A stretch of DNA of 38,877 bases from Gammaproteobacteria bacterium (GCA_030950195.1 JAUZRS010000040.1:1-38877); one strand, 5' to 3'. Shown: positions 21,991-30,227, numbered from the stretch's first letter. Numbers and translations: made by a program. The notes: a model not told the origin generated them from the sequence alone.

Positions 21991-24519
21991 ATGAGTAAGC
22001 ACTTAATCATCGTTGAATCACCCGCCAAAGGTAAAACGATTAAAAAGTACCTTGGCAAAGATTATGAAGTCATGGCCTCCTACGGCCACGTACGCGACCT
22101 CGTTCCCAAGGAGGGGGCGGTGGATACGGAAAACGGCTTTGCCATGAAATACCAAGCCATTGAACGCAATGAAAAACACGTTCAGGCGATTAAAAAGGCA
22201 CTCAAAAAAGCCGACTCCCTACTGCTCGCAACGGATCCAGATCGCGAGGGTGAAGCCATCTCTTGGCATCTGGCTGAAATGTTACGGGAAAAAAATCTGC
22301 TCGAAGGCAAAGTAGTGCAGCGAGTGGTCTTTCACGAGATCACCAAACGCGCCCTCAAAGAGGCGGTGGACAATCCACGGGAACTCTCCATGGAGATGGT
22401 CAACGCCCAGCAAGCCCGTCGCGCACTGGATTATTTGGTTGGTTTTAACCTCTCCCCCCTGCTGTGGAAAAAGATCCAGCGCGGCCTCTCAGCCGGTCGG
22501 GTACAAAGCCCCGCGCTGCGCATGATCAGCGAACGAGAAGCGGAAATTGACCGTTTTGAAGCCCGCGAATACTGGACAATTGAAGCCGATCTGGAACAGA
22601 GCAAACTGGCCTTCAACGCCAAACTGACCCAACTCGACGGCGACAAATTAAAGCAGTTCAGCATCACCAACGACAGCCAAGCCAACGAAGCCAAAGATCG
22701 TCTGCTCAAAGAAGCCAATGGCATTTTAGTGGTCAAATCCGTCACCAAGAAACAGCGCAAACGCAACCCTGCGCCACCCTTTACCACCTCCACCTTGCAA
22801 CAAGAGGCGATACGCAAACTGGGCTTTACCGCCCTACGCGCCATGCGCGTCGCCCAACAGCTCTATGAAGGCATCGACACCGGTTCCGGTGCCGAAGGGC
22901 TTATCACCTACATGCGTACCGATTCCGTCACCCTCTCTCAAGATGCCTTGGCAGACATTCGTGACCTGATCAGCAACCAGTACGGTGCCGACCAAATGCC
23001 CGCTGAGCCACGTTTTTTCAAAACCAAATCCAAAAACGCTCAAGAAGCGCATGAAGCAGTACGTCCCACCTCCGCTCAGCGTCGCCCCGAAGATCTAAAA
23101 GGTCACCTCACCGACGAGCAATTCAAACTCTACAGCTTGATCTGGAAACGCACCGTCGCCTGTCAAATGGTGCAGGCGGTGTTTGATCAAGTGGCCATCG
23201 ACTTTGCGTGCGGAGACGGCAACACCTTCCGTTCCACCGGCTCCACCTTGCGCGAAGCGGGGTTTATGGCCGTCTATCAAGAAGGCATGGACGACAGCAA
23301 GAAAGAGGAAGATCGGCGCTTACCACCACTGGAAGAGGGTGACAAAGTCGATCTCAAAGCCATTCGTCCCGAACAACATTTCACCGAGCCACCCCCACGC
23401 TACACCGAGGCCAGCTTGGTCAAAACGCTGGAAGAATACGACATCGGTCGCCCTTCCACCTACGCCAGCATCATCTCGACTTTGCAAGACCGTGGTTATG
23501 TGGAGCTGGAGTCACGCCGCTTCACCCCCACCGATGTCGGCAAAGTAGTGAACACCTTTCTCTGCACTCACTTCACTCAGTATGTGGATTACGACTTCAC
23601 CGCCAAACTGGAAGACGAGCTCGATGCCATCGCCCGAGGTGAAAAAGAGTGGATTCCTCTGCTGCGTGAATTTTGGACTCCCTTCACCGCGCTAATCGCC
23701 GACAAAGAAGCCAACGTCAGCCGTGACGAAGCCGTACAAGCACGGGAGCTGGGAACCGATCCAAAAAGCGGCAAACCAATCTCGGTACGCATCGGCCGTT
23801 TTGGTCCTTTTGTGCAGATCGGTACCCGTGACGACGAAGAGAAACCCAAATTTGCCGGTCTTCGTCCAGGGCAGAAGATGGACAAAATCACCCTCGAAGA
23901 GGCCTTGATTCTGTTTCAGCTGCCGCGCAATTTGGGTGAGTCTACTGAAGGTGAGAAGATCAGCACCAACATCGGTCGCTTTGGCCCTTATGTTAAATAC
24001 GACAGCAAATACGTTTCAATCAAAGAGGACGACCCTCACACCATCACTTTAGAACGAGCACTGGAGTTGGTCGCCGAGAAAAAATTGGCCGATGCCAACC
24101 GCATCATCAAAATCTTTGAGGACAGCGAAATTCAGGTGTTGAACGGTCGCTACGGCCCTTACATCACCGACGGCAATAAAAATGCCAAGATTCCTAAGGA
24201 TGTGGAACCCAAAGAGTTGGAACTGGAGCAGTGTGAAAAGCTGATTGCCGAAGCCCCAGAGAAAAAACGCCGAGGTAAAAAGAAAGCGGTGGCGAAGAAA
24301 AAATCGACCGCCAAAAAAACCTCTGCCAAAAAAACCGCTGCCAAGAAAACCAGTGCAAAAAAGACCGCCTCAAAAAAGAAAGCCAGCAGTAAGAAAAAGG
24401 CCAGCAGTAAAAAGAAAGCCGTCGCCAAAAAATCCACTGCAAAAAAGAGTGCGGCGAAAAAAACCAGCACGGTGAAAAAGAAAGTGGCCAGTAAAAAAGC
24501 CGCCAGTGACAAAGAGTAA
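21991..24519 (+). CDS. topA: DNA topoisomerase I with Topo_C repeats and Lys/Ala-rich tail
   Basis: IVESPAK, ATDPDREGEAI, SAGRVQS and ITYMRTDS motifs; three GR(F/Y)GP(F/Y) repeats; no Cys4 zinc ribbons. Confidence 0.98.
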   Translation: MSKHLIIVESPAKGKTIKKYLGKDYEVMASYGHVRDLVPKEGAVDTENGFAMKYQAIERNEKHVQAIKKALKKADSLLLATDPDREGEAISWHLAEMLREKNLLEGKVVQRVVFHEITKRALKEAVDNPRELSMEMVNAQQARRALDYLVGFNLSPLLWKKIQRGLSAGRVQSPALRMISEREAEIDRFEAREYWTIEADLEQSKLAFNAKLTQLDGDKLKQFSITNDSQANEAKDRLLKEANGILVVKSVTKKQRKRNPAPPFTTSTLQQEAIRKLGFTALRAMRVAQQLYEGIDTGSGAEGLITYMRTDSVTLSQDALADIRDLISNQYGADQMPAEPRFFKTKSKNAQEAHEAVRPTSAQRRPEDLKGHLTDEQFKLYSLIWKRTVACQMVQAVFDQVAIDFACGDGNTFRSTGSTLREAGFMAVYQEGMDDSKKEEDRRLPPLEEGDKVDLKAIRPEQHFTEPPPRYTEASLVKTLEEYDIGRPSTYASIISTLQDRGYVELESRRFTPTDVGKVVNTFLCTHFTQYVDYDFTAKLEDELDAIARGEKEWIPLLREFWTPFTALIADKEANVSRDEAVQARELGTDPKSGKPISVRIGRFGPFVQIGTRDDEEKPKFAGLRPGQKMDKITLEEALILFQLPRNLGESTEGEKISTNIGRFGPYVKYDSKYVSIKEDDPHTITLERALELVAEKKLADANRIIKIFEDSEIQVLNGRYGPYITDGNKNAKIPKDVEPKELELEQCEKLIAEAPEKKRRGKKKAVAKKKSTAKKTSAKKTAAKKTSAKKTASKKKASSKKKASSKKKAVAKKSTAKKSAAKKTSTVKKKVASKKAASDKE
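24262..24516 (+). repeat. Low-complexity coding repeats in the TopA tail
   Basis: Imperfect 15-nt units (AKKTS/AKKTA) and 18-nt units (KKKASS). Confidence 0.85.
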
Positions 24520-25074: not shown

Positions 25075-28008
25075 TTAGGTCACTTCACTCTGTTCCTGAA
25101 TCTGTGGCCGAGGTTTGCCCACATAATACCCTTGCGCGTAATCCACATGAAACAAATTCAGTAGGCGAATGGTCTCTTCGCTGTCAACAAATTCCGCCAC
25201 GGTTTTTTTACCAAACCCTCGCGCCACATCAGAGAGCGCTTTAACAAAAATCTGATTGTCCCTTTTTTCCGGCAGATCACGAATAAACGAGCCGTCAATT
25301 TTAACGTAATCCACCGGCAACTCTTTTAAATAGGTAAACGAGGCGAAGCCCACCCCAAAATCATCCAGTGCAAATTGACAGCCCAGCTTCTTCAGCGCCC
25401 CCATCAACACCCGCGCCGAGGCCATATCCGCTACCGCTTCTGTTTCGGTAATTTCGAAAATCAACCGTTTCGGATCCGCTCCCGAATCAAAAATCTGTTT
25501 TTTAATAAACGCCAGCAGACCCGAATCTTCAAACGCTCGCCCCGAAAGGTTAATCGCGATGGTCACCTCCTCCCCTTCATCCGAGAGGGTCACCTGTTGA
25601 CGAATGGCGCGCTCTAAAACATAACGATCAATCAACGAGATCAAACCGTTCTGCTCGGCAATGGGGATAAACGAAATCGGTGGAATGATTTCACCCTCAT
25701 CACCGATCATGCGAATCAAAGCTTCGTAATGGGAGATGGTATTGCTCTGAATATTTAAAATAGGCTGATAATAGAGTACAAAACGTTCGTGTTTAATCGC
25801 CATCTCAATGCGTTCTTTCCAGAGAATGCGTTCGTGTAGATGTTCTCTGACCTGTTCATCGGCAGAAAAAATATGCCACGAACCACGCTCCGCCGATTTT
25901 GCTTGATACATGGCCAAATCCGCATTGGCCATCAACTCCTCCATGCTATCACCGTGCTGCGGAAACAGCGCCACACCGATGCTGGTACTGATGGAATGCA
26001 CCTGACCATTGACGCTGTGACGGATTTTTTTCATCTCCGCGCGCATCCGTTCCACCACGGTAATAATGCCCGCTTGATCGGTGTCACGAAACACAATACC
26101 AAACTCATCACCACCCAAACGCCCCATAATACCTTTGCCAATAATATCCACCTCACGAGTCACTTTAGAAAGCGTATTCGACACACTACGCAACAAGGCA
26201 TCGCCCGAATGGTGGCCACCGGTATCATTAATGTCTTTAAAGTTATCCAGATCCAAATACAGCAACGCACCGCCTTTTTCAGAACGCCGCGACCACGCCA
26301 ACGCCCCTTCCAACTCATCTTGAAAACGCCGCCGATTAAACAGCTCCGTTAATGGGTCGTGATCGGCCAACCAAGCGATACGCGATTCCACTCGTTTTAT
26401 TTCGGTAATATCCAAGCCGATGGAGAGCATACTTTGGCCAGACTTTTGTTTTTCCAGTTTAGAAAAGCTCCACAAAATATGGCGAAGTGAACCATTTTCA
26501 CAGACGATTCGACCTTCACCACGACTTTTATTCAGTTCACCAGCAACCAATTTCATCAGCGTCTCTTTCAATGGCGTTCTAAGCTCATCATTGTCGTGCA
26601 AATCTAAAAAATAACTACTCTGAATTTGTTCAACATTATAACCACTTAAAGAAGCAGCATAACTGTTACACAAAATCACTTTGCCTTTTGAATCTTGGGT
26701 TAAAATCAATGCTTCTGCAGTATCCAAAATACCTTTGACAAAATTACGTTCAACAATCAGCTCTTTATTATGTGATTTTAAATTTTTTTCACGCGCATCC
26801 ACCTCATTGGTTAAAAATTCCAATTGGTTGGAGAGACTCTGAGAGGTACTGGAAAGGTGATCAATCTCATCACAAAAATAATGATTCTGAATGGACTTCA
26901 AATCTTTACACACGCGCTGAAATTCCCCTTTCGCCAACAGAGGCAATTTTTCAGAAACAACTTTAATCCGCCGGATGGGTCGCCACAAGACCAACAACAA
27001 TGCCAGTTCAGATAACAAAAGACCAATAATTCCAGCATGAATGCTCTCTGTTGCCCATCGATTAATCTGGTTAATCTGTTGCGTCACATCGGCAATAATA
27101 AGAAAAAAGTCGTGATTATCGGAGACCTGATGATGGTGCTGAGCTTGATCTTGGCTTTCCTGTTCAATAGGAATCAAGCTGACTTCATAGGTCTTCTCTT
27201 GCCATTCAAAGCGCACACCGTGGTGCAAGTCCTCATAACTTATGCCTTTATTCTCCAGCTCTGCCAACAAGGCCAAACTGTGCTCTTTATTGGTTACACT
27301 ATTGACTTTTACTCCTAATTCATAAAAAATACGCGGTGACTTAGAACGCTGTGTCTGCGCCAATAACTCTCGGCTCACAATACCAATATTACTACTGGTT
27401 ATTTTACTAAACTGTATGATTACCTCGGTCAAAGAACGACCTAACAACAACTCGCCGACATGTTTTCCGCTGGAAATCATCGGCACCACAGAATAATGAA
27501 CGCACTCCATCCCACAGCGAATAAAATCATTCGGCAACTCACTGTTACGAGTTTTTCCCACTAACGTTAAAATAGCACCCCTCAGTTTTTCATTGTAAAT
27601 ATCCTGACCCCAAGCCGAACTTATTTCACCCGATGTAGAAAAAAACTCCGCTGCTACCAAGCCCATATCAAGACTCAAGTAGGACCAATGGTTTTCAAAG
27701 TTATCTTCAAACTCTTTTTTATTCTCAGTCAATAACTGTAGATTCACACCTGACAACGAAGGCACAAACACACCCAATTGCAACAGGCTGTTTCTGGATT
27801 GCTGAATCAAAGTAGAGATTTCATGCCGATGATTTTTATGTGAATCTTGTCTTTCACGATCAAACAGACTCATCAGGTTTTTATAAGAAATGGCCGAAAA
27901 AGCAATGTTAATGACCAATAAGACCAGACTTAATACCAACAACACCTTCCATTTCAAACTAAGAAAGGCAGCCCACTCTCCCTTAAATACGCCTCTCTTA
28001 ACCACCAC
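25075..28008 (-). CDS. Membrane-bound diguanylate cyclase/phosphodiesterase (TM-periplasmic sensor-TM-HAMP-PAS-GGDEF-EAL)
   Basis: HDPLTELFNRR, DLDNFKDINDTGGH, RLGGDEF, YEALIRM, DDFGVG and KIDGSF motifs; two TM helices flank a roughly 280-aa periplasmic region. Confidence 0.95.
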   Translation of the reverse strand: MVVKRGVFKGEWAAFLSLKWKVLLVLSLVLLVINIAFSAISYKNLMSLFDRERQDSHKNHRHEISTLIQQSRNSLLQLGVFVPSLSGVNLQLLTENKKEFEDNFENHWSYLSLDMGLVAAEFFSTSGEISSAWGQDIYNEKLRGAILTLVGKTRNSELPNDFIRCGMECVHYSVVPMISSGKHVGELLLGRSLTEVIIQFSKITSSNIGIVSRELLAQTQRSKSPRIFYELGVKVNSVTNKEHSLALLAELENKGISYEDLHHGVRFEWQEKTYEVSLIPIEQESQDQAQHHHQVSDNHDFFLIIADVTQQINQINRWATESIHAGIIGLLLSELALLLVLWRPIRRIKVVSEKLPLLAKGEFQRVCKDLKSIQNHYFCDEIDHLSSTSQSLSNQLEFLTNEVDAREKNLKSHNKELIVERNFVKGILDTAEALILTQDSKGKVILCNSYAASLSGYNVEQIQSSYFLDLHDNDELRTPLKETLMKLVAGELNKSRGEGRIVCENGSLRHILWSFSKLEKQKSGQSMLSIGLDITEIKRVESRIAWLADHDPLTELFNRRRFQDELEGALAWSRRSEKGGALLYLDLDNFKDINDTGGHHSGDALLRSVSNTLSKVTREVDIIGKGIMGRLGGDEFGIVFRDTDQAGIITVVERMRAEMKKIRHSVNGQVHSISTSIGVALFPQHGDSMEELMANADLAMYQAKSAERGSWHIFSADEQVREHLHERILWKERIEMAIKHERFVLYYQPILNIQSNTISHYEALIRMIGDEGEIIPPISFIPIAEQNGLISLIDRYVLERAIRQQVTLSDEGEEVTIAINLSGRAFEDSGLLAFIKKQIFDSGADPKRLIFEITETEAVADMASARVLMGALKKLGCQFALDDFGVGFASFTYLKELPVDYVKIDGSFIRDLPEKRDNQIFVKALSDVARGFGKKTVAEFVDSEETIRLLNLFHVDYAQGYYVGKPRPQIQEQSEVT

Positions 28009-28046
28009 AATTGACTCCCTGTTTTGCTAGAAAAATGATCTTCCAG

Positions 28047-29282
28047 CTAAAAGCGATACGAAACGGCTAAAGTATACAAATCCCAAAATGGTTTTGTTGC
28101 TAAAGGATCTGGATTTTCTGTCAAAGCCAACCAAGAAGTGCCATTGACACGATGGTACTCCGCCTGCAACATCCATTGCGGTGCTACATTCCAACGCAAT
28201 CCAATGGTGCTGTCTTTACTAAAACGACTGTGTGCCACCACCGCAGGCAAACCAAAACTTTGCAAAATAGGCGAACTGCTGGCTAATTTTTTACCCGTTT
28301 TATCATCACGACCAAAATATTGCACATCGTAGCGCAACACCCACTCCCATTTTGGTGCAAATCGATATTGTGCTTGCATATAATAAGACTCAGAAAACCT
28401 CGCCTCATCAGCAATTAAAAACCCCAAACCTTCAGTTACCGTTTTTTGCTCCGTGTACTCTGCTGTTAAACTCCAAAACTCACTGTTGTATTGCAACGAA
28501 AAAATACGTGGCTCAATGCAAATAGAGCCAGAAGGAATTAAATCACCCGCACCCGTTTTAAAATCAATCTGTGCTTTGACCCAAGTCAAGCCCACACGCA
28601 CACGACCCTCTTGCCAATCATAAATTAAACGCCCCAAATATGAGGGTATTTCGGCCTGCAAATGCCCCGCCCAATCTTTATTTAGCATCAACACGCGCTC
28701 CAACTCAATCGAATCTGCACGCGGATAACCTACCCCGACATTCAGCGTATAATCGCCATAGTCTGTACGTTCTTCACCGTAAAGATAAACTGCATCGGTG
28801 GAAAGATACATATCACGACTGCGATCCAAATAGGTGGATTGTGGCAACAAGATCGAAGGACGTGTGTGTGCCACATCCCGAGTTTCATTGTAAAAACCCA
28901 TTGGATTTTTAACACGCCCCAAACGCACACCCCACAGGCCATCCATATCCGAACTGAGGCGGTAATCAACAAAACCGTAATCCAACTGCGGGCTGCCGTC
29001 GTTCAAGGCCCCTGCTCGCCGCGACAACACCTGTCCTGAAAACTGCCAATCTGGGGTCGGCTTAAATGAACCATTAAGACCCATCTCAGTAAATTCAGCA
29101 CTGAAATTATCACTCGGACCAAAAAAGTGATTAGCTGATGTTTTGATCAGCGCTTGATTAAAAAACCCATGCCATTGAAAGCGCTTCAATGGTTCTGCCA
29201 ACAGCGATTGCACCGCAAAAAGTAAGCATAACGCGATGCTCAAGCGAACCACTGTCTTGCTATTAATTAATGCGTAAGACAT
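28047..29282 (-). CDS. Putative outer-membrane beta-barrel (porin-like) protein
   Basis: Signal peptide, aromatic-rich amphipathic strands, C-terminal beta-signal LAVSYRF. Start set at ATG 29282 behind GGAGG. Confidence 0.8.
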   Translation of the reverse strand: MSYALINSKTVVRLSIALCLLFAVQSLLAEPLKRFQWHGFFNQALIKTSANHFFGPSDNFSAEFTEMGLNGSFKPTPDWQFSGQVLSRRAGALNDGSPQLDYGFVDYRLSSDMDGLWGVRLGRVKNPMGFYNETRDVAHTRPSILLPQSTYLDRSRDMYLSTDAVYLYGEERTDYGDYTLNVGVGYPRADSIELERVLMLNKDWAGHLQAEIPSYLGRLIYDWQEGRVRVGLTWVKAQIDFKTGAGDLIPSGSICIEPRIFSLQYNSEFWSLTAEYTEQKTVTEGLGFLIADEARFSESYYMQAQYRFAPKWEWVLRYDVQYFGRDDKTGKKLASSSPILQSFGLPAVVAHSRFSKDSTIGLRWNVAPQWMLQAEYHRVNGTSWLALTENPDPLATKPFWDLYTLAVSYRF

Positions 29283-29682
29283 GCACCCTCCCATCAACCT
29301 TATCCTTACTCAAATAACCAATCGCCCCTGGCGTATTCGCCACTCTCTGCAACATTTCAGCCTCAGATGACAAACGAATCGGAGCTTGCCCGGTGCCAGA
29401 AAAAACCAAACGATCCCATGCACGCCGTAATTGATGTGGAAACACATTCAGGGTAGTTTTACAAAACTGAGCATGCAATGGATTTTCATCCGCCAAAACA
29501 AACACCGTGATTTCGTGATTGCTCTCAGGCCAACGCCCCAAGCGCATGCCAAAAATAGCGCGCAAAGCGCGCTTAGGCAACGTATCAGCCACCGTTGAAT
29601 TGACGATAATCACCTCGTCGGCTTGCAGCACACCACAGCCCAGCAGCAATGCCAACAACAGCCCCCCCAGCCTTATCCTCAT
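29263..29682 (-). CDS. Small periplasmic PstS-like substrate-binding-domain protein (139 aa)
   Basis: Signal peptide, then VIIVN..L..IF...W and VANTPGAIGY. Start set at ATG 29682; the longer ORF has no plausible N-terminal signal. Confidence 0.8.
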   Translation of the reverse strand: MRIRLGGLLLALLLGCGVLQADEVIIVNSTVADTLPKRALRAIFGMRLGRWPESNHEITVFVLADENPLHAQFCKTTLNVFPHQLRRAWDRLVFSGTGQAPIRLSSEAEMLQRVANTPGAIGYLSKDKVDGRVHVLRIN

Positions 29683-29772
29683 GACCCGACTTTCTCCCAA
29701 AAACAGCGCCATTGCAGCGTCATTTTTATGACCAGAACTCCACTCCATGGGAACAAAAGCATTAGTCATGCC

Positions 29773-29801
29773 AAAAAAAAACGACCCAAAGGTCGTTTTT
29801 T
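29773..29801 (-). terminator. Intrinsic terminator after the 36-aa ORF
   Basis: A9-CGACC-CAAA-GGTCG-T6 on the plus strand, giving a U9 tail on the minus strand. Confidence 0.85.
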
Positions 29802-29832: not shown

Positions 29833-29943
29833 TTAAAAGAAATCCTTTAAAAGGGGGTAATAAATCACAGACAAAAAGCTTGTCCAAGCCAAAGCAATAA
29901 CACCCCATGTGATAATCATAGGCATATAAAAGTTAAACCACAT
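29833..29943 (-). CDS. Small single-TM membrane protein (36 aa), absent from the ORF track
   Basis: MWFNFYMPMIITWGVIALAWTSFLSVIYYPLLKDFF; AAAGGAGG RBS 5 nt before the ATG; terminator 31 bp after the stop. Confidence 0.75.
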   Translation of the reverse strand: MWFNFYMPMIITWGVIALAWTSFLSVIYYPLLKDFF

Positions 29944-30032
29944 AACAACCTCCTTTACACTGGAAACAACAAATATCACATCAATCCGACCAAGCTAATA
30001 ACCCCATCAGAATTAATGAGAATAACAAATTT

Positions 30033-30227
30033 TTACTCCTGCCGCTCCTCTTCTAGCTTCGATTTTTCATTGCCTGGGATTTTAGGATCATCGTCATCCA
30101 TTAAAATACGAAAAGCGGGGCCTTCCAGATCATCAAATTGACCGTCTTTTACCGACCAAATAAAAATCCACACAAACAGTCCTAAAAACAGCAGCCCCAA
30201 GGGAATCAAAAGATACAAAATGGCCAT
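30033..30227 (-). CDS. ccoS: cbb3-type oxidase maturation protein
   Basis: MAILYLLIPL...WSVKDGQFDDLEGPAFRILMDDD. Confidence 0.96.
   Translation of the reverse strand: MAILYLLIPLGLLFLGLFVWIFIWSVKDGQFDDLEGPAFRILMDDDDPKIPGNEKSKLEEERQE

What the first reader, a model, noticed from the sequence alone, without database searches (positions are those of the whole stretch)
25075..29682. Candidate trans-envelope c-di-GMP signalling system: periplasmic PstS-like protein + outer-membrane barrel + inner-membrane GGDEF-EAL sensor
Seen: three co-oriented, tightly packed genes (20-nt overlap, then a 38-bp gap), insulated upstream by a terminator and ending head-on at tsaC. Their products map to the periplasm, the outer membrane (C-terminal YRF) and the inner membrane/cytoplasm. 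No ABC permease, ATPase or TonB gene is present, so this does not look like a transporter. Both GGDEF and EAL catalytic motifs are intact. Known: YfiBNR and LapD/G show envelope-spanning control of c-di-GMP but use unrelated proteins. Inference: the barrel admits or binds an outside signal, the small protein relays it, and the periplasmic sensor-HAMP-PAS switches cyclase versus phosphodiesterase output (attachment, biofilm or host sensing). From memory, similar small-SBP plus porin pairs lie beside GGDEF/EAL, chemoreceptor or kinase genes in aquatic proteobacteria, and I know of no functional characterisation; this is unverified.
Basis: partly seen in the sequence, partly recalled or inferred. 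Interest (0 to 1): 0.75.

Follow-up and report, generated by a model that had tools for sequence, protein, structure and literature searches.

The report
Capped outer-membrane pore with c-di-GMP sensor
Three neighbouring genes encode an outer-membrane pore, a small periplasmic protein predicted to cap it, and an inner-membrane enzyme that makes and breaks the biofilm signal c-di-GMP; the trio is widely conserved, usually beside a lipid-signal synthase, and what it senses has not been tested.

Summary
The three minus-strand genes exist as described: a 20-nt overlap, a 38-nt gap, an upstream hairpin with a T-run, and convergent tsaC. They form a conserved module. In 80 loci found through the barrel, the small protein is adjacent in 77. 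The dCache_3-PAS-GGDEF-EAL protein is adjacent or nearby in 74. The small protein's family occurs in 91 of 400 evenly sampled genomes of the class.

The small protein is half a PstS fold and lacks the canonical phosphate loop. The barrel is a 16-stranded porin. A complex prediction puts the small protein as a cap on the barrel's periplasmic mouth. Its invariant F-S-G-T-G-Q loop reaches the barrel's invariant constriction loop (score 0.93, best control 0.00). It therefore looks like a cap or plug rather than a shuttling binding protein.

[quoted passage not shown] The window's own genome showed neither that synthase nor an exosortase. More distant cap-barrel pairs flank chemoreceptors and kinases.

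Best reading: an uncharacterised envelope-spanning sensor that sets c-di-GMP, possibly in response to acyl-amino-acid lipids. The ligand and the relay step are inferred.

The parts
29263..29682 (-). Small periplasmic protein (139 aa; signal peptide about residues 1-21). It is a single-lobe, half-PstS fold and the predicted cap or plug of the barrel. Invariant loop: D90-R-L-V-F-S-G-T-G-Q99.
   Evidence: ORF. Pfam PBP_like_2 at 15.9 bits, below threshold. Model pLDDT 87.1. Foldseek best matches are PstS proteins, with TM 0.66 on the query and about 0.35 on the targets. Alignment A2. Complex prediction.
28047..29282 (-). Outer-membrane 16-stranded porin-like barrel (411 aa; signal peptide about residues 1-29; C-terminal ...SYRF). 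Its long constriction loop L3 (about 126-160) holds the most conserved motif of the family.
   Evidence: ORF. 934 homologues. Alignment A1 with its invariant columns. Model pLDDT 80.8 with 16 long strands. Foldseek matches trimeric porins (OmpT, Omp32, ChiP, OmpF, OprP). Porin_O_P matched weakly in 7 of 15 members.
25075..28008 (-). Inner-membrane sensor enzyme (977 aa): TM about 22-42, periplasmic dCache_3 about 43-322 with invariant C165 and C169, TM about 323-342, linker, PAS 424-537, GGDEF 548-708, EAL 732-966.
   Evidence: Pfam. Hydropathy. Motif columns over 85 relatives.
29773..29800 (-). Hairpin plus T-run (terminator-like) that separates the cassette from the cco gene cluster upstream.
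   Evidence: Read directly from the sequence. Not listed by the consensus scan.

Best explanation
The three genes encode one envelope-spanning sensory module.

- The barrel is a porin-like outer-membrane channel.
- The small half-PstS protein docks on the barrel's periplasmic mouth. Its invariant F-S-G-T-G-Q loop pushes up the lumen to meet the barrel's invariant constriction loop. Together they form a composite gate or binding site.
- The inner-membrane dCache_3-PAS-GGDEF-EAL protein turns the state of this outer-membrane complex, or a ligand that passes through it, into a change in c-di-GMP.

[quoted passage not shown] The window's organism keeps the receptor side without the synthase.

Shown here: the gene anatomy, the domain content, the co-conservation, the fold assignments and the synthase linkage.
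Predicted: the cap-barrel complex.
Inferred: the ligand, the cap-to-sensor relay (release or sequestration of the cap, as in YfiB/YfiR, or hand-over of a ligand), and the direction of the c-di-GMP change.
For: Co-conservation in the barrel-seeded loci. Of the 80 best loci found through the barrel:
- 77 have the small protein adjacent;
- 68 have the sensor directly downstream and 6 more have it nearby;
- 70 match the GGDEF-EAL part.

These 80 loci are dominated by Nitrosomonadaceae but also include Competibacteraceae, Chromatiales, Methylomarinum, Sedimenticolaceae and Nitrospirota.

Co-conservation in the even sample. The small protein's profile hits 91 of 400 genomes of the class. For 25 genomes with a strong hit whose loci I fetched, a dCache_3 GGDEF-EAL gene lies in the locus in 21.

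Folds. The small protein is half a PstS fold. The barrel is a 16-strand porin.

Cap-barrel complex.
- Score 0.93 in each of three runs; best of 3 controls 0.00.
- This mark was reached by 116 of 157 solved complexes and 2 of 215 mismatched pairs. Those counts hold only roughly here, because my own alignments were used.
- Partner pLDDT 88-89. The runs agree in at least 90% of contacts.
- The interface uses alternate, polar, lumen-facing residues at the periplasmic ends of the strands (R34/Q36/H38/F40, 70-84, 102-106). It also uses all periplasmic turns and the L3 residues 133-140.
- No PstS-porin complex appeared among the Foldseek hits.

Interface conservation. Interface residues are more conserved than the rest. 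In the barrel, 17 of 44 against 79 of 338 are at least 90% conserved (Fisher p 0.04; rank test p 0.006). In the small protein, 14 of 34 against 24 of 84 (p 0.2; rank test p 0.012).

Motif co-variation. The loop motif W-x-[RK]-x-x-F-[ST]-G-x-G is kept in nearly all of the 47 adjacent pairs examined; L142 and the L138 copies depart in the second Gly. The barrel's L3 motif changes together with it between subfamilies.

Tandem cap-barrel-cap-barrel arrays occur in L126, L137, L138, L166 and L167.

A direct cap-sensor link. A small-protein gene lies directly before the sensor gene, with no barrel between, in L133 and L136.

Synthase link.
- TIGR03694, above its cut-off in the five loci scanned, sits next to the module in 68 of 80 loci. 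In 60 the four genes are contiguous.
- In the even sample, 16 of 29 published genomes with a strong small-protein hit hold it, against 27 of 367 others.
- Other acyl-amino-acid synthase types also sit in the module (L076: FeeM type plus PhyH).
- One second cap-barrel pair lies next to PrsT (TIGR02917, 729 bits).

Literature.
- Passages read in PMC11072679: knocking out this synthase class in Methylomonas LW13 abolished polysaccharide band formation.
- Passages read in PMC4897644: synthase-PilZ fusions tie this enzyme class to c-di-GMP.
Against: The window's own genome (98.4% complete, 323 contigs) gave no match to the synthase or to exosortase. Nor did the two genomes of the same genus. In all, 7 of 29 published genomes with a strong hit have neither. 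The synthase product therefore cannot be a self-made cue here.

The cap-barrel complex is a model, not a measurement. The alignments were unpaired and my own.

The sensor's periplasmic domain is much less conserved (23-35% identity outside the near relative) than the cap (42-56%) or the barrel (43-49%). This sits poorly with a conserved docking surface.

No fusions of the small protein with a barrel or a sensor were found.

Only 7 of 30 loci around more distant family members have a receptor gene directly flanking the pair. The pair can therefore work without a dedicated receptor next to it.

The interface-conservation enrichment is modest.

The window's EAL domain has Asp where 79 of 85 relatives have Glu, so its phosphodiesterase activity may be reduced.
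Confidence: 0.5

Rival explanations
1. Conduit, not relay. The barrel and its cap form a gated outer-membrane channel that exports or takes up an amphiphile, such as the synthase product. The GGDEF-EAL protein senses the periplasmic level of that compound directly through its dCache_3 domain. No protein-protein signal passes from the cap.
For: The synthase is directly adjacent in 60 of 80 loci. The barrel has a channel fold. The cap is predicted at the channel mouth. Many more distant cap-barrel pairs have no receptor beside them, and some sit next to transport genes: MatE in L146 and L148, MMPL in L166. The poorly conserved sensor domain fits direct and variable ligand binding better than a fixed docking surface.
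Against: The small-protein gene stays directly before the sensor gene where the barrel is missing (L133, L136). Cap-barrel pairs also flank chemoreceptors and kinases, where a sensing role is the simpler reading. The window's genome showed no synthase whose product would need export.
Confidence: 0.2
2. Envelope-state sensor. Whether the cap is lodged in the barrel reports outer-membrane assembly or lipid state, in the manner of RcsF with OmpA/OmpF and IgaA. Unlodged cap then acts on the inner-membrane sensor.
For: A small protein is predicted inside a barrel lumen. The three-tier layout matches. Both partner loops are invariant, with no recognisable small-molecule site.
Against: A lipobox-like cysteine is present in the window's protein but not conserved in the family. 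Relatives flank chemoreceptors, which normally read chemicals. The tight linkage to a lipid-signal synthase points to a chemical cue.
Confidence: 0.1
3. Phosphate or another oxyanion is the cue. A PstS-derived protein and an OprO/OprP-related porin would report phosphate supply to c-di-GMP.
For: The best fold matches of the small protein are all phosphate-binding proteins. 7 of 15 barrel relatives match Porin_O_P weakly, best E 6.4e-7. OprP is among the structural matches at rank 30.
Against: Only one lobe of the binding fold is present. In the profile alignment to the Vibrio cholerae protein 1twy, that protein's R-x-x-S-S-G-T stretch aligns with an unrelated stretch in this family (L-A-D-E-N-P-L-H in the window). 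That this stretch is the phosphate loop is my recollection. The window's barrel does not reach any Pfam porin threshold, and general porins match its fold better than OprP does. No pst genes are adjacent. The synthase linkage is unexplained by this reading.
Confidence: 0.1
4. The adjacency has no functional meaning, and the three genes act independently.
For: None beyond the lack of experiments.
Against: The same order recurs across three phyla-level groups: the small protein is adjacent in 77 of 80 loci and the sensor in 68 of 80. The start and stop codons overlap.
Confidence: 0.02

Closest known systems
YfiBNR (TpbB) system of Pseudomonas aeruginosa and E. coli
   Same: Three tiers. An outer-membrane protein holds or releases a small periplasmic protein, which in turn controls an inner-membrane c-di-GMP enzyme.
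   Different: The parts are unrelated. YfiB is an OmpA-like lipoprotein, YfiR has its own fold, and YfiN is a GGDEF-only protein. Here the parts are a 16-strand porin, a half-PstS fold and a dCache_3-PAS-GGDEF-EAL protein. The sensor scores far below the DgcN/YfiN cut-off (144 against 325 bits).
Binding-protein co-sensors: NspS-MbaA, LuxP-LuxQ, TorT-TorS, and PstS with the chemoreceptor CtpL (recalled)
   Same: A periplasmic binding-protein-like partner is encoded next to a membrane receptor. MbaA is also a GGDEF-EAL protein.
   Different: Those partners are full two-lobe binding proteins that enclose a ligand, and none has a dedicated porin. Here only one lobe remains (TM about 0.35 on full PstS targets), and it is predicted to bind a barrel.
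Two-protein outer-membrane complexes with a partner lodged in or on a barrel: LptD-LptE, RcsF-OmpA/OmpF, CsgG-CsgE, SusC-SusD (recalled)
   Same: A separate small protein occupies the lumen or mouth of an outer-membrane barrel and is needed for the barrel's gating or signalling.
   Different: There is no sequence or fold relation. Those partners are lipoproteins or unrelated folds. Here the barrel has only 16 strands, the partner is a soluble half-PBP, and the module is tied to signalling proteins.
TonB-dependent transducers (FecA-FecR-FecI) (recalled)
   Same: An outer-membrane barrel that binds an external ligand passes the information to an inner-membrane signalling protein.
   Different: There is no 22-strand TonB-dependent barrel, no plug domain within the same chain, no TonB box, and no anti-sigma factor.
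PEP-CTERM/exosortase-associated N-acyl amino acid synthases (TIGR03694). Craig, Cherry and Brady 2011, J Bacteriol 193:5707: only citing papers were read; the paper itself is not held.
   Same: In 60 of 80 related loci the synthase gene lies directly upstream of the module. One cap-barrel pair lies next to PrsT.
   Different: Citing papers report only a synthase-exosortase link (passages read). I found no paper that mentions the cap, the barrel or the GGDEF-EAL neighbour. The window's genome showed neither synthase nor exosortase.

Membership tests
PstS / PBP_like_2 phosphate-binding proteins | Pfam PF12849 match above the gathering score | tested here: not met
   15.9 bits against a cut-off of 27, matching profile positions 95-185 of 267 only. 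Some relatives carry a precomputed PF12849 match.
PstS / PBP_like_2 phosphate-binding proteins | Two-lobe Venus-flytrap fold of about 250-320 residues | tested here: not met
   The mature protein is about 118 residues. Foldseek TM is 0.66 on the query but 0.35-0.40 on the PstS targets, so about one lobe is covered.
PstS / PBP_like_2 phosphate-binding proteins | Phosphate-binding loop (Arg ... Ser-Gly-Thr; feature recalled) | tested here: not met
   In the profile alignment to 1twy, its R-E-A-S-S-G-T stretch aligns with an unrelated stretch, L-A-D-E-N-P-L-H in the window. The family's own S-G-T-G-Q motif lies elsewhere.
PstS / PBP_like_2 phosphate-binding proteins | Encoded with PstC/PstA/PstB transporter genes | tested here: not met
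   None in the window flanks. None among the 88 flanking proteins of relatives.
OprO/OprP phosphate-selective porins (PF07396) | Pfam match above the gathering score | tested here: not met
   The window's barrel gives no PF07396 match. 7 of 15 aligned relatives match weakly, best E 6.4e-7.
OprO/OprP phosphate-selective porins (PF07396) | 16-strand trimeric-porin fold | tested here: met
   The model has 16 long strands and a long L3. OprP (2o4v) is matched at rank 30 with TM 0.56, behind general porins. Trimer formation was not tested.
OprO/OprP phosphate-selective porins (PF07396) | Arginine ladder and lysine cluster lining the channel (recalled) | not tested
   No residue-level superposition was available.
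GGDEF-EAL c-di-GMP enzymes | GGDEF and EAL domains above Pfam thresholds | tested here: met
   GGDEF 146.2 bits (cut-off 23.8). EAL 241.4 bits (cut-off 31.3).
GGDEF-EAL c-di-GMP enzymes | Catalytic signature residues (list recalled from the RocR and PleD literature) | tested here: inconclusive
   Across relatives, the second Gly of GGDEF is kept in 84 of 85 and D-E-F in 85 of 85. The E and L of EAL, ExxE, DD and Q-G are kept in 85 of 85. KxD is kept in 82-85 of 85. The acidic residue of the E-F-V-E motif is Asp in the window and 5 relatives and Glu in 79. No RxxD site lies upstream of GGDEF. Activity was not measured.
dCache_3 extracellular sensor domain (PF14827) | Pfam match above the gathering score, lying between two transmembrane segments | tested here: met
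   67.6 bits against 25.7, residues 63-284. Hydrophobic segments lie at about 22-42 and 323-342. No solved relative was found by sequence.
YfiBNR | Homology of the three parts to YfiB, YfiR and YfiN | tested here: not met
   No OmpA-like or YfiR-type match for the barrel or the small protein. The sensor scores 144 bits against the DgcN/YfiN cut-off of 325, through its GGDEF domain only.
PEP-CTERM/exosortase regulon with TIGR03694 synthase | TIGR03694 and an exosortase present in the same genome, with the synthase adjacent | tested here: not met
   For the window: no match in the own genome, which is 98.4% complete. The PEP-CTERM domain search was uninformative because nothing rang in its controls either. 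For relatives the feature is met in 60 of 80 loci and in 16 of 29 sampled genomes.

The most novel reading that the evidence does not exclude
The cap-barrel complex together with the dCache_3 GGDEF-EAL protein would be the missing receptor for long-chain N-acyl amino acids. The LuxI-like TIGR03694 synthase would make a lipid autoinducer. The capped porin would capture it at the outer membrane. The inner-membrane enzyme would convert it into c-di-GMP and so into exopolysaccharide and PEP-CTERM protein output.

On this reading the window's organism, which has the receptor but no synthase, is an eavesdropper on its neighbours' signals. More broadly, half-PBP-capped porins would be a general outer-membrane front end that bacteria attach to chemoreceptors, kinases and c-di-GMP enzymes.
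Probability: 0.25. Interest if true: 0.9.

Novelty: new variant of a known kind. Interest (0 to 1): 0.74.

Why it matters
[quoted passage not shown] No receptor or physiological role for their products turned up in my searches. The module described here is the synthase's most constant neighbour, and it ends in a c-di-GMP enzyme. That gives a concrete, testable receptor candidate.

Separately, a single-lobe binding-protein fold predicted to cap a porin would be a new kind of outer-membrane complex. Its family is large: 6442 representative clusters at E <= 0.001, and 349 at E <= 1e-30. It recurs next to chemoreceptors and kinases. It may therefore be a widespread and overlooked way of bringing outside cues across the outer membrane to inner-membrane sensors. 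This would apply in nitrifiers, methanotrophs and sulfur oxidisers, where biofilm control matters for wastewater and biogeochemistry.

Tried and rejected
- Phosphate-triad idea. I first thought that R91-x-x-x-S95-G96-T97 of the small protein was the PstS phosphate triad. The profile alignment to 1twy places the canonical loop elsewhere, so I dropped this.
- Fusions. A search for fusions of the small protein with a barrel or a sensor gave only 3 longer proteins. Two have longer N-termini and one is a TPR fusion.
- Sensor domain against solved structures by sequence: nothing below E 0.1.
- Protein atlas look-up of the small protein: only 'PBP domain-containing' clusters, nothing new.
- Sequencing runs: none was listed, and no RNA holder was listed. 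Read laying was therefore not tried.
- Earlier findings of this scan: nothing to show by place, words or sequence.
- Promoter scan: 4 sites against 7.8 +/- 2.8 in shuffles, none between the hairpin and the small gene. The promoter remains unlocated.
- PEP-CTERM domain search in the own genome: uninformative, since its controls also gave nothing.
- Craig et al. 2011 (PMC3187218) is not held. It may describe the synthase's neighbours. Only passages of citing papers were read. Haft et al. 2006 (PMC1569441) contains none of the words GGDEF, diguanylate, porin, acyl or phosphate.
- The dCache_3 literature search led nowhere.
- Complex prediction of the small protein with the sensor domain, or with both partners, was considered. 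It was not run because only one job was allowed.


Full report
**Observation.** One search shows three co-oriented minus-strand ORFs.
- The first runs 29263-29769. Its internal ATG at 29682 gives a 139-aa protein with an N-terminal signal peptide. That is the length of the identical database protein P0121.
- The second runs 28047-29297. Its ATG at 29282 gives 411 aa, the length of its 97%-identical relative P0001.
- The third runs 25075-28008 (977 aa).

With these starts the first two genes overlap by 20 nt, and the second and third are 38 nt apart. The third gene's stop codon lies 8 nt from the end of the convergent tsaC.

Read directly, a hairpin (ACGACC / TTTG / GGTCGT) followed by eight T occupies 29800-29773 on the minus strand. 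It lies between a short ORF that I read as CcoS (from recall) and the first gene. The consensus scan did not list it. The long ORF's first ATG (29769) abuts this T-run, which favours the 29682 start.

Upstream are ccoN, ccoO, ccoP, ccoG and a heavy-metal P-type ATPase. Downstream are tsaC and topA. No importer, permease or TonB gene lies nearby.

**The three proteins.**

*Sensor.* Pfam gives dCache_3 (67.6 bits), PAS (borderline), GGDEF (146 bits) and EAL (241 bits). It gives no HAMP. Hydropathy places the dCache_3 domain between two membrane segments, at about 22-42 and 323-342. I aligned 85 relatives, not de-duplicated between the two locus sets.
- G-D-E-F is essentially invariant, and there is no RxxD site upstream.
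- The EAL-domain signature residues are kept. I recalled that list from the RocR literature.
- The one exception is the acidic residue of the E-F-V-E motif. It is Asp in the window and 5 relatives and Glu in 79.
- Two periplasmic cysteines (C165, C169) are invariant in 85 of 85.

*Small protein.* It matches PBP_like_2 only below threshold. Its model (pLDDT 87.1) matches solved PstS proteins with TM 0.66 on the query and about 0.35 on the targets. It is therefore one lobe of that fold. In a profile alignment to 1twy, the stretch I recall as the phosphate loop aligns with an unrelated stretch of this family. The family's own invariant motifs are F-S-G-T-G-Q-A-P and T-P-G-A-I-G-Y.

*Barrel.* The model has 16 strands (pLDDT 80.8) and matches trimeric porins in general. 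Weak Porin_O_P matches occur in 7 of 15 relatives. Its most conserved stretch is the long loop between strands 5 and 6 (invariant Y131 ... R156). The model predicts this stretch poorly.

**Conservation.** The barrel has 934 relatives at E <= 0.001 in a word-indexed search. A scan of one genome per species found at least 558 loci, of which the best 80 were kept. In those 80 loci:
- the small protein is adjacent in 77;
- the sensor's N-terminal part is present in 74, directly downstream in 68;
- the GGDEF-EAL part is present in 70.

Most misses are contig ends. The 80 are dominated by Nitrosomonadaceae, which are kin. They also include Competibacteraceae, Chromatiales, Methylomarinum, Sedimenticolaceae and Nitrospirota.

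In an even sample of 400 genomes of the class, the small protein's profile hits 91 genomes, with up to 8 copies per genome. Against 1.84 billion representatives it finds 6442 proteins at E <= 0.001 and 349 at E <= 1e-30. The own genome has one copy.

I fetched loci for 25 genomes with a strong hit (E <= 1e-30; unpublished genomes left out). A dCache_3 GGDEF-EAL gene lies in the locus in 21 of them.

While checking the exceptions I found a recurrent gene of about 250 aa. [quoted passage not shown]
- It lies in 68 of the 80 loci.
- In 60 loci the order synthase, small protein, barrel, sensor is contiguous.
- In some gammaproteobacterial loci it sits between barrel and sensor together with a methyltransferase. 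One Methylomarinum locus has a FeeM-type synthase and a PhyH dioxygenase there instead.

In the even sample, and without the four flagged genomes:
- 16 of 29 genomes with a strong small-protein hit hold the synthase above cut-off, against 27 of 367 others;
- exosortase is present in 16 of 29 against 83 of 368;
- 7 of 29 have neither. These include the window's genome (98.4% complete) and both other genomes of its genus.

A second cap-barrel pair in one genome lies next to PrsT.

From the literature, passages read in PMC11072679 show that disrupting this synthase class in Methylomonas LW13 abolished polysaccharide band formation. Passages in PMC4897644 describe synthase-PilZ fusions. Citing papers say that Craig et al. 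2011 linked these synthases to exosortase genes. The paper itself is not held. Four full-text searches found no paper that combines the synthase or exosortase with a diguanylate cyclase and a porin or binding protein.

**The wider family.** Around more distant members of the small-protein family (30 loci), the gene is again paired with a barrel gene.
- In all 60 loci of the sample, 36 show a called small-protein gene next to a barrel that my barrel profile detects.
- Five more have an unassigned neighbour of 364-446 aa with a signal peptide and a terminal Phe.
- Tandem cap-barrel-cap-barrel arrays occur in L126, L137, L138, L166 and L167.

In 7 of the 30 loci the flanking gene is a receptor:
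- chemoreceptors in L150, L153 (two) and L161;
- histidine kinases in L137, L138 and L145;
- a dCache_1 GGDEF-EAL protein in L152.

Most distant pairs, however, have no receptor directly beside them. In two genomes a small-protein gene directly precedes the sensor gene with no barrel between them (L133, L136).

- The score was 0.93 in all three runs, and the best of three controls was 0.00.
- Partner pLDDT was 88-89, and at least 90% of contacts were shared between runs.
- This mark was reached by 116 of 157 solved complexes and 2 of 215 mismatched pairs. Those counts hold only roughly here, because my own alignments were used.
- I know of no solved PstS-porin complex, and none appeared among the fold matches. 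A pass from memory is therefore unlikely.

The contact list has a clear geometry.
- On the barrel it uses alternate polar residues at the periplasmic ends of strands 1-7 (R34, Q36, H38, F40; 70-84; 102-106; 120, 125; 168-172).
- It also uses every periplasmic turn and the residues 133-140 of the constriction loop.
- On the small protein it centres on loop 90-100, which is the invariant D-R-x-V-F-S-G-T-G-Q.

The small protein is thus modelled as a cap on the periplasmic mouth, with its loop reaching up the lumen to the constriction loop.

Interface residues are somewhat more conserved than the rest. The loop motif is kept in nearly all of the 47 adjacent pairs examined (L142 and the L138 copies differ in the second Gly), while the barrel's loop motif changes with it between subfamilies. 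This is a model, not a measurement.

**Mechanism.** The best-supported reading is a three-tier sensor.
- A porin whose periplasmic mouth is capped by a half-binding-protein forms the outer-membrane front end.
- A dCache_3-PAS-GGDEF-EAL enzyme forms the inner-membrane back end, and c-di-GMP is the output.

How the two ends talk is inferred. A ligand entering the barrel may displace or reshape the cap, which then binds or leaves the dCache_3 domain (the logic of YfiB/YfiR/YfiN). Alternatively, the cap may receive the ligand at the composite site and pass it on.

The cue is also inferred. [quoted passage not shown] The window's organism makes none by this route, so it would respond to outside sources or to another amphiphile.

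The rivals cannot be excluded:
- a gated conduit with an independently sensing enzyme;
- an envelope-state sensor of the RcsF type;
- a phosphate or oxyanion sensor.

The last is weakened by the missing lobe, the missing phosphate loop and the absence of pst genes.

**Comparison and novelty.** In logic the module resembles YfiBNR, the binding-protein co-sensors (NspS-MbaA, LuxPQ) and barrel-plus-partner complexes (LptDE, RcsF-OMP, SusCD). It is homologous to none of them beyond the generic GGDEF-EAL, Cache, porin and PBP folds (see the membership table). I found no description of it in the literature I could search. I rate it a new variant of a known kind (envelope-spanning control of c-di-GMP), built from a previously undescribed outer-membrane pair. 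The bolder reading is given separately: a lipid-autoinducer receptor, and a general porin front end for receptors.

Noticed in passing
L163:6929-9331, L164:6956-9547, L165:6842-8503: A weak match to the small-protein profile (E 2e-7 to 2e-13) lies at the N-terminus of 553-863 aa proteins that carry SLT lytic transglycosylase and LysM domains. In L163 and L164 a barrel gene lies directly upstream.
   Followed up: partly
L022, L050, L059, L062, L111, L112 (genes of about 260 aa next to the synthase): In several gammaproteobacterial loci, a SAM-dependent methyltransferase (Methyltransf_11/25/31) accompanies the TIGR03694 synthase inside or beside the module. This hints that the acyl amino acid is further modified.
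   Followed up: partly
L076:5049-6886: In a Methylomarinum locus, a FeeM-type synthase and a PhyH-family dioxygenase lie between barrel and sensor, in place of the TIGR03694 enzyme.
   Followed up: no
L139:3853-6720 and protein P0243: One cap-barrel pair lies beside PrsT, the XrtA/PEP-CTERM TPR protein (729 bits against a cut-off of 312). One database protein fuses the small-protein domain to TPR repeats.
   Followed up: partly
window 25075-28008 (residues 165, 169, 625-629, 942): The sensor's periplasmic domain has an invariant C-x-x-x-C pair (85 of 85). The window's clade (4 of 85) has a five-residue insertion just before GGDEF. The window and 5 relatives have Asp for Glu in the E-F-V-E motif of the EAL domain.
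   Followed up: partly
window 21991-24519: Topoisomerase I carries a C-terminal tail of about 100 residues that is very rich in Lys, Ala and Ser (histone-H1-like repeats).
   Followed up: no
window 29833-30226: Two short ORFs lie between the P-type ATPase gene and the hairpin. One looks like CcoS (from recall). The other is a hydrophobic peptide of about 36 aa with no assignment.
   Followed up: no
L031, L121: Two barrel genes in tandem follow a single small-protein gene, ahead of the sensor (Manganitrophaceae locus L031 and genome G058).
   Followed up: no
L003:3905-5311: In a Sedimenticolaceae locus, a 468-aa dCache_3 protein with no recognisable output domain lies upstream of the small-protein and barrel genes, in place of the GGDEF-EAL sensor.
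   Followed up: no
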